Shown: one piece after another, positions 49,501 to 52,500 of the stretch | Layout: each line of letters starts with the position of its first letter | How positions within the stretch are numbered: the first letter of the stretch is position 1 | NCBI RefSeq assembly: GCF_022846255.1 | Contig: NZ_AP025682.1 | Reading direction: 5' to 3' (one strand) | DNA from: Escherichia coli | Lineage (GTDB): Bacteria; Pseudomonadota; Gammaproteobacteria; Enterobacterales; Enterobacteriaceae | Length of the DNA stretch: 64,000 nucleotides | Program-made: the position numbers

Positions 49501-52500
49501 GACCTGTTTATCCTTCGCATACTTCACGCCACGATAATCTTGGTCGATGATGTACCAGTCCGGGAAGCCCTGCGCCCGGTACAGTTCACGCGGCTGTAAC
49601 ATGCGCATACCAATATCAACAATGCGATACGTCACGCCATCGATCACCACCAGCCCGGTACAATCCTCGCCACAGTATTTACGCAGGAACGACAGCGTTT
49701 GTTGCGCGCGTTCTTCGTCGTACTCATCTACGGCAAGATGGGTTTCAACGTTCCCTACATGCAGGCCACCAGCCGTGACAGTCGGCATTGGCGCGTCGGT
49801 GCGTTGTCCATCCCGGCAGGTTCCGCGCAATTTAACCAGGTGAGAAGCAACCACAGCATGGTGATCGACGGTGGTCACAGAATGCATCGGCTCATCCATC
49901 CCCACTTCGGCAATAAACCGGTAAAGGTGTTCGCGATAAAGGTGAATATCAATGACTAAATCAGCAGCAGAAAGCAAAAGAATTTTTAGGTACAATCAAA
50001 ATCACTTTTTGTTGTTAACTATTTGATGAACTACAAGGATAAGATCATGTATCAGCAAATCATTTTTGAAGAAGGAAAAGAACCAAGAGTGCACACAAGC
50101 CACCAAGACATCAAGACATCAAGACATCAAGACATCAAGACATCAAGACATCAAGTCTATCGAAATAAGTGATAACAGTGGAAAAGTTCAAGAGATTTCG
50201 GTTATGGAGTTCAAGGATACCAGAGGAGATGTTTTTTATGCTTACAACTATGCTTATTCTGGTAAAAAACCATCAAATGACGAAATCTATAAGGCTATTG
50301 ATGAGCTAAAGCCAATCGGTGAAAAATTCGAAATGTCTAAGACTATAAGCGATTAGATAAATCTGTTTTCAACATTGCAGCAAAATCATAGGAAGAACGC
50401 GACAAAGTTAACATGCTATCGCGAACAGTCGTTAACATCACCTAAAGTCAGCGAATCGCGATACATGGAAATGTCTGGGAAGAACGCCAAGAAGTAAGCG
50501 CAATTTGAACAAATGCGAACCCGCCGAGTGCGGGTTTTCTTTTATCTGAACTCGCTACGGCGGGTTTTGTTTTATGGAGACAAGAAATGTCAGATTTGGC
50601 TATGAAGGTTTTGAAATGGCAATCGACTGGCGATGTTGGCATCAGTAGCGCAACTCTTGCCTCAATCGCATGTGGACTGAAAAAGAATATCTATGGTCAT
50701 AGCTTCGGTGCTCCACATGACGCAGCCGATTTCCGACGATGCGTTGCGCTTGTCGAGCAGATTCCAGAAATCAGGGATTCATTCGACAAGGTTGCAAAGC
50801 GCGTTCCGGCATTCAAAGGCATCCTCAACGAATGGGATTCTCTCGTTGCTCTGTTGAAGTCTGAAATGAAGATACACGGAAACAAAGCACCAGAGACTTA
50901 CAGAAGAATTAGCGAGTTACGCAAGGACTAACCACAGCCTCACACTCGATGAGGCCCGTTCATTTCTCAAGATATCCAGACCTACCATTGCCGCATCAAT
51001 GCGGCTTTTCTTGCGTGTAATTGCGGAGACTTTGCGATGTACTTGACACTTCAGGAGTGGAACGCACGCCAGCGACGCCCAAGAAGCCTTGAAACAGTTC
51101 GTCGATGGGTGCGCGAATGCAGGATATTCCCTCCTCCGGTTAAGGATGGAAGAGAGTATCTGTTCCACGAATCAGCGGTAAAGGTTGACTTAAATCGACC
51201 AGTAACAGGTAGCCTTTTGAAGAGGATCAGAAATGGGAAGAAGGCGAAGTCATGAGCGCCGGGATTTACCCCCTAACCTTTATATAAGAAACAATGGATA
51301 TTACTGCTACAGGGACCCAAGGACGGGTAAAGAGTTCGGATTAGGCAGAGACAGGAGGATAGCAATTACTGAAGCAATACAGGCCAATATTGAGTTACTC
51401 TCAGACAGCGGACGCAAATCACTAATAGACAGAATTAAAGGCGGTGACGCAATCACTCTTCATGTGTGGCTTGACCGATATGAAACAATCCTCACCGAAA
51501 GGGGGATCAGGCCGAAAACTCTACTCGACTACGCCAGCAAAATCAGGGCAATCCGAAGAAAATTGCCGGACAAACCGCTCACTGACATATCAACGAAAGA
51601 AGTGGCAGCAATGCTAAACACCTACGTAGCAGAAGGTAAAGCAGCTTCCGCAAAATTAATCAGGTCAACCCTTGTTGACGTTTTTCGTGAAGCAATAGCC
51701 GAGGGGCATGTGGCAACGAATCCGGTAACAGCAACCCGTACAGCAAAGTCAGAAGTAAGGCGCTCAAGGCTGACAGCTAATGAGTATGTCGAGATTTACC
51801 ATGCAGCCGAACCTCTCCCTATCTGGCTAAGGCTGGCGATGGATTTGGCCGTCGTTACAGGGCAGAGAGTCGGCGATTTGTGCAGAATGAAATGGTCAGA
51901 CATAAACGACAACCATCTTCACATTGAACAGAGTAAAACAGGGGCTAAACTCGCCATTCCGCTAACGCTAACGATTGACGCGCTCAATATCTCATTGGCT
52001 GATACACTACAGAAATGCAGGGAGGCCAGCAGCAGTGAAACTATAATCGCATCAAAGCATCACGATCCGCTTTCCCCGAAAACAGTATCAAAGTATTTTA
52101 CAAAGGCGAGAAATGCATCTGGACTCTCATTTGATGGAAACCCGCCAACATTCCATGAACTGCGTAGCCTGTCAGCGAGGCTATACCGGAACCAGATTGG
52201 CGATAAGTTTGCTCAACGTCTTCTCGGGCATAAATCAGACTCAATGGCGGCGCGGTATAGGGACAGCCGTGGACGGGAATGGGACAAAATTGAAATCGAC
52301 AAATGATTTTATTTTGACTAATAATGACCTGCCTACATTAATTCATTGATAATAAAAGAGATTTTAAATATACAACTTATTCACCTAAAGTGCACCGACC
52401 GTGAATTTAACCCTGACCCGAAGACTCTGGATGGGCTTTGCCCTGATGGCGCTGTTAACCCTGACCAGTACCCTGGTGGGATGGTACAACCTGCGCTTTA

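What the first reader, a model, noticed from the sequence alone, without database searches (positions are those of the whole stretch)
50047..50356. Octanucleotide repeat (CAAGACAT)x6 positioned to act as a frameshift phase-variation switch in a small prophage accessory gene
Six perfect tandem copies of an 8-bp unit lie 57 bp after an ATG (50047) that has a good SD. With six copies the ATG frame terminates after 41 codons, while a 96-codon frame continues to 50356 in another frame with no ATG/GTG start upstream of the repeats. Gaining one unit (7 copies) or losing two (4 copies) would fuse the ATG to the long frame. Perfect non-triplet repeats at the 5-prime end of an ORF are the classic slipped-strand phase-variation signature. 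It lies among other accessory genes near int.
Basis: seen in the sequence. Interest (0 to 1): 0.6.

Follow-up and report, generated by a model that had tools for sequence, protein, structure and literature searches.

The report
Slippery 8-bp repeat switching prophage gene
A run of six perfect 8-base repeats inside a small, conserved but uncharacterised gene of an E. coli lambda-like prophage has knocked the gene out of frame, and near-identical prophages elsewhere carry 1, 3, 4 or 7 copies, so the repeat behaves as a fast-mutating on/off frameshift switch of a kind rarely seen in E. coli or temperate phages.

Summary
There is 1x CAAGCCAC plus 6x perfect CAAGACAT at 50096-50151, starting 57 bp after ATG 50047 (SD AAGGA). 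The ATG frame stops after 41 codons, and the rest of the gene runs to 50356 in the +1 frame.

The gene is real. It belongs to phrog_7123 and is the orthologue of Gifsy-1/2 STM2623.1n/STM1019.1n, normally 89 aa with one unit. It shows long-range purifying selection and a confident AF2 fold, but has no known function.

Prophage copies differing from the one-unit haplotype by only 1-3 SNPs per ~2.4 kb carry 4 units (in frame, 97 aa), 7 units (in frame, 105 aa, the exact fusion predicted) or 4xCAAGCCAC+4xCAAGACAT (in frame). A second prophage type carries 3 units (out of frame). All five array-bearing copies differ in their arrays.

The array codons lie in a beta-hairpin loop, and the 7-unit protein is still predicted to fold. 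The window allele is therefore the OFF state of a slipped-strand frameshift switch.

Three things are not shown: the switching rate within a culture, any phenotype, and any selection for switching. Most family members have one unit, expanded alleles are very rare, and the gene is also broken by ordinary mutations elsewhere.

Verdict: a real, recently born contingency-type locus, and a new member of a known kind.

The parts
49940..50585 (+). Mobile gene module: leader, gene, 3' untranslated stretch and two terminators. It is shared at ~99% identity between the window-type prophage and an unrelated prophage (L007).
   Evidence: Alignment A2. BLAST of L007 against the window covers only 49897-50687. 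Gifsy-1/2 share 49963-50415.
50035..50039 (+). Shine-Dalgarno AAGGA, 7 nt before ATG 50047.
   Evidence: Sequence. Conserved as GAGGA in Gifsy-1/2.
50047..50172 (+). True start codon and the truncated 41-codon product of the 6-unit (OFF) allele.
   Evidence: The same ATG starts the intact 84-89-aa homologues.
50096..50103 (+). Variant unit CAAGCCAC. It is itself expanded to 4 copies in L008.
50104..50151 (+). Six perfect CAAGACAT units, the hypermutable tract. There is no stop codon in any forward frame, and each three units encode QDIKTSRH.
50152..50356 (+). Remainder of the gene (beta3 to the C-terminal helix, stop at 50354-50356), lying in the +1 frame relative to the ATG in this allele.
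   Evidence: It matches the body of the intact one-unit protein P0002; the window differs by a single synonymous change at 50200.
50066..50356 (+). TTG-started 96-codon ORF, annotated in GenBank as hypothetical protein BDH33982.1. This is an annotation artefact of the frameshift and is unlikely to be translated.
   Evidence: No SD before the TTG.
50517..50575 (+). Two tandem intrinsic terminators that close the module.
   Evidence: The homologous HK022 stretch is annotated 'tL4 terminator' (H66).
49408..49995 (-). Neighbour: C-terminal remnant of a C5 DNA methyltransferase (pseudogene). Context only.
   Evidence: phrog_23072 profile positions 214-393 of 400; PF00145 on the homologous ORFs.
50587..52306 (+). 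Downstream context: 114-aa phrog_1229 ORF (50587-50931), excisionase (51037-51255) and lambda-type integrase (51233-52306) at the prophage end next to torS.

Best explanation
The locus is a small, genuine lambdoid-prophage accessory gene: phrog_7123, orthologue of Gifsy-1 STM2623.1n, normally 89 aa, function unknown.

A pre-existing CAAG-N4-CAAG-N4-CAAG microhomology in this gene has expanded into a perfect octanucleotide array. Slipped-strand mispairing during replication of the prophage or phage adds or removes whole 8-bp units. Because 8 is not a multiple of 3, each single-unit step changes the reading frame.
- n = 1, 4, 7... gives full-length protein. The extra units add 8 or 16 residues (QDIKTSRH repeats) to a surface beta-hairpin loop.
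- All other n give a truncated 29-57-aa N-terminal peptide.
- The window carries n = 6, the OFF state. One gain (to 7) or a two-unit loss (to 4) restores ON.

Shown:
- the array and its frame arithmetic;
- the reality and conservation of the gene;
- natural ON and OFF alleles on almost identical flanks;
- the loop location of the insert.

Inferred:
- slippage as the mutational process;
- a switching rate high enough to create mixed populations;
- lack of translation from TTG 50066;
- expression as part of the pL early-left operon.

Whether switching has been selected for (bet-hedging) or is a by-product is open.
For: 1. Array and frames.
2. Orthology and the ancestral state:
- Gifsy-1/2 have the same ATG and an intact 89-aa ORF with no array. 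The window has +40 bp relative to them.
- More than 100 contigs from E. coli, E. albertii and Salmonella encode 89-aa proteins with one unit.
3. Allelic series at the DNA level: n = 7 (L005), n = 4 (L006), 4+4 (L008), n = 3 (L007) and n = 6 (window). All arrays are perfect, and all five differ from each other.
4. The hand-built 7-unit fusion protein exists verbatim in the collection as P0034.
5. Flanks: each expanded allele differs from the one-unit haplotype L012 by 1-3 SNPs in 2.1-2.4 kb. No SNP is private to the expanded group. The array therefore changes much faster than point mutations accumulate.
6. The gene is real:
- phrog_7123 match, E = 9e-50;
- homologues down to 36-45% identity keep a length of 76-89 aa and the conserved motifs;
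- dN/dS 0.11-0.27 against Citrobacter;
- AF2 pLDDT 88.
7. The array codons (residues 20-22) lie in the beta2-beta3 loop. The 7-unit protein keeps the fold, with a disordered insert at residues 21-35.
8. TTG 50066 lacks an SD.
9. Established knowledge (from memory): loops larger than about 4 nt escape E. coli MutS, and SSRs placed in E. coli do phase-vary (Torres-Cruz & van der Woude 2003). Neither point was re-read here.
Against: - No within-culture or read-level data were available, so rate and reversibility are unproven.
- Only five array-bearing copies were found in about 15 billion proteins. None were found in IMG/VR, JGI metagenomes, GTDB representatives or 5,426 complete RefSeq E. coli genomes.
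- Six to seven units (48-56 bp) is a short tract, so the rate may be modest.
- Three of five expanded alleles are in frame, which is not significantly above the 1/3 expected (p = 0.21). The protein-based survey is also blind to n = 2, 5, 8.
- The gene is lost by ordinary mutations elsewhere:
  - a +T frameshift in at least 158 Salmonella contigs;
  - a nonsense codon in L008;
  - homopolymer frameshifts in P0026, P0028 and P0029.
  This points to weak selection on keeping it.
- No promoter was found directly upstream, so expression in the lysogen is doubtful.
Confidence: 0.72

Rival explanations
1. Neutral VNTR in a decaying gene. The 8-bp expansion is a mutational accident in a dispensable prophage gene. 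The window copy is simply a pseudogene, copy number drifts, and the in-frame alleles are chance survivors with no biologically meaningful ON/OFF switching.
For: - Most family members have one unit and no array.
- Expanded alleles are extremely rare.
- The gene is also broken by unrelated mutations: Salmonella +T, the L008 nonsense codon and homopolymer frameshifts.
- The adjacent methylase is a remnant.
- The in-frame fraction of 3/5 is not significant.
Against: - Long arrays are still found in frame with an otherwise intact ORF (n = 4 and n = 7).
- The flanks show almost no other decay, with 1-3 SNPs per 2.4 kb.
- The family is under long-term purifying selection.
- Mechanistically, the same hypermutable tract necessarily produces reversible frame changes whether or not they are selected. 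This rival disputes significance, not mechanism.
Confidence: 0.2
2. Loop-length polymorphism is the relevant trait. The array varies the length of a fast-evolving surface hairpin (+0, +8 or +16 aa of QDIKTSRH) that contacts a variable partner, and out-of-frame alleles are transient by-products.
For: - The array lies in the beta2-beta3 loop, and the insert is tolerated as a disordered loop.
- The N-terminal half shows 18 nonsynonymous against 3 synonymous changes between E. coli and Gifsy-1. The ratio against Citrobacter is 46:33 (Fisher p = 0.02).
- The unit is open in all three frames.
Against: - With an 8-bp unit, two of every three slippage products are frameshifts. That is an inefficient way to vary length.
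- Two of five natural expanded alleles are out of frame.
- No partner or function is known.
Confidence: 0.05
3. Expression is independent of copy number. The C-terminal part is translated from TTG 50066 (or the internal ATG 50204), so the frameshift has no consequence.
For: - A 96-codon TTG ORF exists and is what GenBank annotates (BDH33982.1).
- An internal ATG gives a 50-aa ORF that is annotated in many Salmonella genomes.
Against: - There is no Shine-Dalgarno sequence before either start.
- Both products lack the conserved beta1-beta2 N-terminus, including invariant F7 and near-invariant E8, G10, P13 and R14.
- All intact homologues start at the MYQQ/MxD ATG.
Confidence: 0.02
4. Assembly or sequencing artefact: the copy numbers are mis-assembled.
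For: Several alleles come from metagenome or automated (Logan/ENA) assemblies.
Against: - The arrays are 24-64 bp, far shorter than a read.
- Five independent assemblies give clean, perfect arrays with identical flanks.
- The L008 contig was recovered in 3 samples.
Confidence: 0.01

Closest known systems
SSR (slipped-strand mispairing) contingency loci of Haemophilus, Neisseria and Campylobacter, for example tetranucleotide lic/mod genes and pentanucleotide CTCTT opa genes
   Same: - A perfect non-triplet tandem repeat sits just inside the 5' end of an ORF.
- Unit gain or loss shifts the frame between full-length and truncated product.
- Copy number differs between otherwise near-identical genomes.
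   Different: - The host is E. coli, where known phase variation runs on invertases and Dam methylation (PMC4272514, PMC11868660) and SSR switching is barely documented. One possible case is a kpsC homopolymer (PMC13410964).
- The unit is 8 bp and the tract is short (3-8 units).
- The tract is not conserved across the gene family, because one unit is the norm.
- The target is a prophage early-region protein of unknown function, not a surface structure or an R-M gene.
Phage contingency loci reported for T2 agt and T4 rIIA (Gomez, Barrick & Waters, bioRxiv 10.1101/2025.10.21.683753)
   Same: Polymerase slippage in a phage-borne coding SSR produces reversible frameshifts and mixed ON/OFF progeny. 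The authors propose this as bet-hedging.
   Different: - Those loci are homopolymers of at least 6 bp in virulent phages, with experimentally measured reversion.
- Here the repeat is an octanucleotide array in a temperate lambdoid prophage, and the only evidence is population-level.
- The same gene does also contain T6 and A6 runs, where Salmonella copies are frameshifted.
Gifsy-1 STM2623.1n / Gifsy-2 STM1019.1n (phrog_7123), with structural neighbours labelled 'YnfN' or 'Qin prophage protein'
   Same: - Orthologous gene with the same start codon and SD.
- The C-terminal half is 100% identical at the DNA level.
- phrog_7123 match, E = 9e-50.
- AFDB fold neighbours at TM about 0.7.
   Different: - The Gifsy copies have no array (CAAGCCAA CATGACTC CAAG).
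- They sit in the nin region rather than next to xis-int.
- The function of the family is unknown.
MLVA-type VNTR loci of E. coli O157 and Salmonella (for example STTR6 in Gifsy-1; from memory)
   Same: A short tandem repeat in prophage or coding DNA whose copy number differs between closely related isolates.
   Different: Typing VNTRs are mostly 6-, 9- or 18-bp in-frame units that do not toggle the reading frame. This 8-bp locus was not found in the searched literature.

Membership tests
SSR-mediated phase-variable (contingency) locus | Perfect tandem repeat of a non-triplet unit inside the 5' coding region or promoter | tested here: met
   6x CAAGACAT at 50104-50151, 57 bp after the ATG.
SSR-mediated phase-variable (contingency) locus | Unit gain or loss toggles between a full-length and a truncated ORF | tested here: met
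   In-silico alleles n = 0-13. Natural 97-aa (n = 4) and 105-aa (n = 7) ORFs versus frameshifted n = 3 and n = 6.
SSR-mediated phase-variable (contingency) locus | Repeat number polymorphic among closely related genomes | tested here: met
   n = 1, 3, 4, 6, 7 and 4+4 on flanks differing by 1-3 SNPs per 2.1-2.4 kb.
SSR-mediated phase-variable (contingency) locus | High-frequency, reversible switching within a clonal population | not testable with these tools
   No read-level or culture data are available. This needs amplicon deep sequencing or reporter fluctuation assays.
SSR-mediated phase-variable (contingency) locus | ON/OFF difference in protein or phenotype | not testable with these tools
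   Only indirect evidence exists: no SD at the alternative starts, and the truncated product loses most of the fold.
SSR-mediated phase-variable (contingency) locus | Repeat tract maintained across the species or gene family, the signature of selection for mutability | tested here: not met
   Nearly all homologues have a single unit or none. Arrays were seen in only 5 contigs.
phrog_7123 / Gifsy STM2623.1n small prophage protein family | Full-length profile match and conserved motifs (IFExGKEPR ... DxR ... AIDxLKPxG) | tested here: met
   phrog_7123 E = 9e-50 over residues 1-89, alignment A3 and the Gifsy DNA alignment. This holds for the frame-corrected sequence. In the window itself the ORF is split.
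Phage contingency loci sensu Gomez et al. 2025 | Homopolymer SSR of at least 6 bp in a phage ORF with measured elevated reversion | tested here: not met
   The array is an octanucleotide repeat, not a homopolymer, and no reversion data exist. The locus works like those loci but is not the same class of tract.
Known anti-phage defence or Pfam/NCBIfam families | Significant profile match | tested here: not met

The most novel reading that the evidence does not exclude
This is a contingency locus caught at birth in a temperate coliphage. The proposal has three parts.
- A three-fold CAAG microhomology in a fast-evolving surface hairpin of an early-operon accessory protein (possibly a host-takeover or anti-defence factor) expanded into an 8-bp array.
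- The array is now kept because stochastic ON/OFF switching, together with loop-length variation, lets the prophage or phage hedge between hosts or defence backgrounds.
- If so, it would be the first non-homopolymer SSR phase-variation system in a lambdoid phage, and one of very few SSR switches in E. coli.
Probability: 0.2. Interest if true: 0.7.

Novelty: new member of a known kind. Interest (0 to 1): 0.45.

Why it matters
E. coli is the textbook case of an organism whose phase variation runs on invertases and Dam methylation rather than simple-sequence repeats. Contingency loci in phages were first claimed only in 2025, and only for homopolymers in virulent phages.

This locus gives a natural, sequence-verified allelic series (1, 3, 4, 6, 7 units) in a temperate coliphage, on essentially identical flanks. 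That makes several things directly testable:
- how a contingency locus is born from a microhomology;
- how fast an 8-bp tract slips in a mismatch-repair-proficient enteric host;
- whether prophage accessory genes are bet-hedged.

It also has a practical side. Annotation pipelines mis-call such alleles (a TTG-started ORF, or a 50-aa fragment), and the tract could serve as a fine-scale typing marker for this prophage. The importance is limited because the gene's function is unknown, the lineage is rare, and selection for switching is unproven.

Tried and rejected
- Pattern scans for the array:
  - IMG/VR gave two unrelated intergenic arrays.
  - JGI metagenomes and GTDB representatives gave nothing.
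  - Even the one-unit E. coli-type allele is absent from IMG/VR and JGI.
- The gene is absent from 5,426 complete RefSeq E. coli genomes. In PLSDB it appears only in two Salmonella phage-plasmid-like records.
- I suspected that the widespread 50-aa 'MEFKDTRG...' annotation hid n = 2, 5, 8 alleles. In the Salmonella copies examined it is an unrelated +T frameshift. E. coli cases could not be enumerated.
- Exact look-ups of predicted products found nothing for n = 0, 3, 9, 10 or 12 on the window background. L-variant n = 4, 6 and 7 products and a full-length 4+4 product were also absent. The window's short N-terminal fragments are not on record either.
- No consensus sigma-70 promoter lies upstream. 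An independent 'moron' transcription unit is therefore unsupported, although two terminators follow the gene.
- A literature search for the repeat sequence on both strands found no paper.
- A test for selection on the in-frame state was inconclusive (3 of 5, p = 0.21).
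Full report
OBSERVATION

The window is E. coli chromosome carrying a lambdoid prophage.
- The host flank (appA, appB, cspG, cspH) matches E. coli at 99.7%.
- The prophage end has excisionase (51037-51255) and a lambda-type integrase (51233-52306) next to torS.

The sequence holds one CAAGCCAC unit at 50096-50103, six perfect CAAGACAT units at 50104-50151, and a partial CAAG.
- ATG 50047 has AAGGA 7 nt upstream.
- Its frame ends after 41 codons at 50170-50172.
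- The long frame to 50356 has only a TTG (50066) upstream of the array.

The array is the only perfect SSR with a 4-10-bp unit and at least 4 copies in the 64-kb window. Chance expectation for it is about 5e-20.

WHAT THE GENE IS

Gifsy-1 and Gifsy-2 of Salmonella LT2 carry an annotated 89-aa hypothetical protein (STM2623.1n / STM1019.1n) with these features:
- the same leader, SD and ATG as the window gene;
- a C-terminal half identical at the DNA level;
- no array, with CAAGCCAA CATGACTC CAAG in its place.

Relative to them the window has +40 bp, which is five extra units and therefore a frameshift.

A search of the 5.8-billion-cluster protein collection found 32 relatives.
- The common E. 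coli, E. albertii and Salmonella form is 89 aa (or 96 aa if called from an upstream ATG) with exactly one unit (...HTSHQDIKSIE...).
- An exhaustive HMMER search of 1.84 billion representatives found only a small family of 76-89-aa proteins, reaching down to 36-45% identity.
- The family has a conserved N-terminus (IFExGKEPR) and C-terminus (DxR...Y...AIDxLKPxG).

The profile and fold searches gave the following.
- The protein is phrog_7123, unknown function (E = 9e-50).
- It has no Pfam, PADLOC or NCBIfam match.
- AlphaFold2 gives a confident model: pLDDT 88, six beta-strands and one helix.
- AFDB neighbours are only small uncharacterised enterobacterial prophage proteins, some labelled YnfN or Qin prophage protein (TM about 0.7).

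dN/dS is 0.11-0.27 against the Citrobacter homologue, so over the long term this is a protein under purifying selection. The close pair E. coli versus Gifsy-1 has 18 nonsynonymous against 3 synonymous differences, all within codons 4-42. The Fisher test against the distant pair gives p = 0.02. The N-terminal hairpin region is therefore fast-evolving.

Family members normally sit in the nin region, between the replication genes and dinI, holE-like or TIR genes. In the window-type prophage a ~650-bp module (49940-50585) sits co-oriented with the pL operon (cIII-kil-gam-recT-exo-...-ea22), just before xis-int. The module comprises the leader, the gene and two tandem terminators at 50517-50575. 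No consensus promoter lies directly upstream, and no Rfam family matches.

THE DECISIVE TEST: DOES COPY NUMBER VARY?

The 90%-identity cluster that contains the window's TTG ORF (= GenBank BDH33982.1) has other members of interest.
- One is a 97-aa protein.
- One is a 105-aa protein. It is, residue for residue, the 7-unit ATG fusion that I had constructed by hand.
- One is an 88-aa TTG-frame protein.
- One is a 101-aa protein with a different insert.

Fetching their DNA and counting units gave this series.

| Locus | Array | Frame | Background |
|---|---|---|---|
| window | n = 6 | out of frame | reference |
| L005 | n = 7 | in frame | 99.5% identical to the window over 2.9 kb |
| L006 | n = 4 | in frame | same torS-adjacent prophage; 95.6% over 12 kb, but 4 mismatches over 48500-50950 |
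| L008 | 4x CAAGCCAC + 4x CAAGACAT | in frame, with a GAA-to-TAA nonsense codon 12 codons from the end | 99.4% over 2.3 kb; contig seen in 3 samples |
| L007 | n = 3 | out of frame | same module in an unrelated prophage with a different integrase |

All arrays are perfect, and all five array-bearing copies differ from each other.

One-unit alleles (P0002) occur in the very same prophage type, inserted at torS or at the ybhC/att-lambda site. A SNP table over 48500-50950 shows that each expanded allele differs from the one-unit haplotype L012 by only 1-3 SNPs, and that no SNP is private to the expanded alleles. Expansion and subsequent diversification of the array have therefore been much faster than point substitution. 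This is the behaviour expected of a hypermutable tract.

FRAME LOGIC AND PROTEIN CONSEQUENCES

Modelled alleles n = 0-13 behave as follows.
- n = 1 mod 3 gives the full protein (89, 97, 105, 113 ... aa).
- n = 0 mod 3 gives a truncated peptide ending ...HQVYRNK, and leaves only the TTG ORF.
- n = 2 mod 3 gives a peptide ending ...TSSLSK, and leaves only an internal 50-aa ATG ORF.

Because 8 and 3 are coprime, all three frames read the same QDIKTSRH repeat and none contains a stop. The array codons correspond to residues 20-22, in the loop between beta2 (14-18) and beta3 (24-28). The 105-aa allele is predicted to keep every secondary-structure element, with the 16-aa insert as a low-confidence loop at residues 21-35. 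In-frame expansions are therefore plausibly functional.

The OFF products keep only beta1-beta2. The TTG and internal-ATG products lack the conserved N-terminus and have no SD.

MOST LIKELY MECHANISM

A three-fold CAAG microhomology at 8-bp spacing (CAAG CCAC CAAG ACAT CAAG) seeded a duplication by slipped-strand mispairing. Once several units existed, further gain and loss became frequent. Loops of 8 nt are poor substrates for E. coli MutS; this comes from established knowledge and was not tested here.

Each step toggles translation of the gene. The window allele (n = 6) is OFF. It is one gain away from the observed n = 7 ON allele and two losses away from the observed n = 4 ON allele. Expression is probably from pL read-through after induction, which is inferred from orientation and the lack of an own promoter.

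WHAT REMAINS OPEN

I could not test switching within a culture, protein levels or phenotype. Several observations argue that the switch is a young by-product rather than an evolved regulator.
- The tract is absent from almost all family members.
- Expanded alleles are very rare: five contigs. There are none in IMG/VR, JGI metagenomes, GTDB representatives or 5,426 complete RefSeq E. coli genomes, which lack the gene altogether.
- The in-frame share of 3/5 is not significant (p = 0.21).
- The gene is also inactivated by ordinary mutations elsewhere:
  - a +T frameshift in at least 158 Salmonella contigs;
  - the L008 nonsense codon;
  - frameshifts at the gene's T6 and A6 runs.

My survey was protein-based and cannot see n = 2, 5 or 8 alleles.

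COMPARISON WITH WHAT IS KNOWN

Mechanistically this is a classical SSR contingency locus of the Haemophilus or Neisseria type. It meets the sequence-level criteria: tract, frame toggling and inter-strain polymorphism. It fails the criterion of a tract conserved across the family.

In E. coli, known phase variation is by inversion or Dam methylation (PMC4272514, PMC11868660). An SSR case (a kpsC homopolymer) was proposed only recently (PMC13410964).

Phage contingency loci were first claimed in 2025 for homopolymers in T2 and T4, with BASEL phages scanned for homopolymers of at least 6 bp (bioRxiv 10.1101/2025.10.21.683753). Those phages are virulent and the tracts are mononucleotide runs.

The repeat sequence itself appears in no searched paper.

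I therefore class this as a new member of a known kind. The mechanism is familiar. The host, the element (a temperate lambdoid prophage), the unit length and the evident recency are unusual.

VERDICT

- Adaptive significance is unproven.
- Interest is moderate (0.45). This is a clean natural allelic series that makes the birth and behaviour of an SSR switch in a coliphage experimentally tractable. It sits, however, in a rare lineage and in a gene of unknown function.

Noticed in passing
window 13495-13921 (inside minus-strand ORF 12091-14472): A 189-bp tandem repeat x2.3 (TRF score 770) encodes in-frame 63-aa Ala/Ser/Thr-rich repeats in a 793-aa tail-fibre-like protein. It is a possible length-variable fibre shaft.
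   Followed up: partly
window 49408-49995 (-): This is the C-terminal half only of a C5 DNA methyltransferase (phrog_23072 profile 214-393/400, TTG start). The same remnant is conserved in all related prophages (L005, L006, L008, L011-L016), next to a 174-176-aa phrog_2602 ORF (48581-49111, minus strand) of unknown function.
   Followed up: partly
window 50517-50575 (+): Two tandem intrinsic terminators sharing a GCGGGTTTT(C/G)TTTTAT repeat follow the gene. The homologous HK022 stretch is annotated 'tL4 terminator', and this short segment is widespread in lambdoid phages, including lambda itself.
   Followed up: partly
window 50232-50237 (T6) and 50264-50269 (A6): Salmonella homologues P0026, P0028 and P0029 (up to 12 contigs) are frameshifted exactly at these homopolymers. 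These could be sequencing errors, or additional slippage-prone sites of the kind recently called phage contingency loci.
   Followed up: no
L009 1455-1470 (Salmonella Gifsy-like prophage): The orthologue is inactivated by a +T insertion (CCCAATTAAG versus CCCAATAAG). This produces the widely annotated 50-aa 'conserved hypothetical protein' P0038, seen on at least 158 contigs (for example serovar Newport).
   Followed up: yes
L008 (column corresponding to window 50321): The 4+4 mixed-array allele also has a GAA-to-TAA nonsense mutation that removes the last 12 residues. The contig was seen in 3 samples.
   Followed up: partly
window 50047-50175 versus L001 2453-2580: The N-terminal half of the gene differs from Gifsy-1 by 18 nonsynonymous and 3 synonymous changes. 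From about 50215 to 50386 the DNA is 100% identical. This suggests a recombination mosaic with a fast-evolving hairpin region.
   Followed up: partly
L019 3041-3865 and L020 824-1648: In more distant relatives the gene sits two ORFs upstream of a 274-aa TIR-domain protein (PF13676), in the nin region next to a holE-like theta fragment. This may indicate a defence or counter-defence neighbourhood.
   Followed up: no
window 48226-48375 (-): There are weak sub-threshold Rfam matches to RsmY (22 bits, E = 0.02) and isrK (21 bits). Both are far below gathering scores and are probably chance.
   Followed up: no
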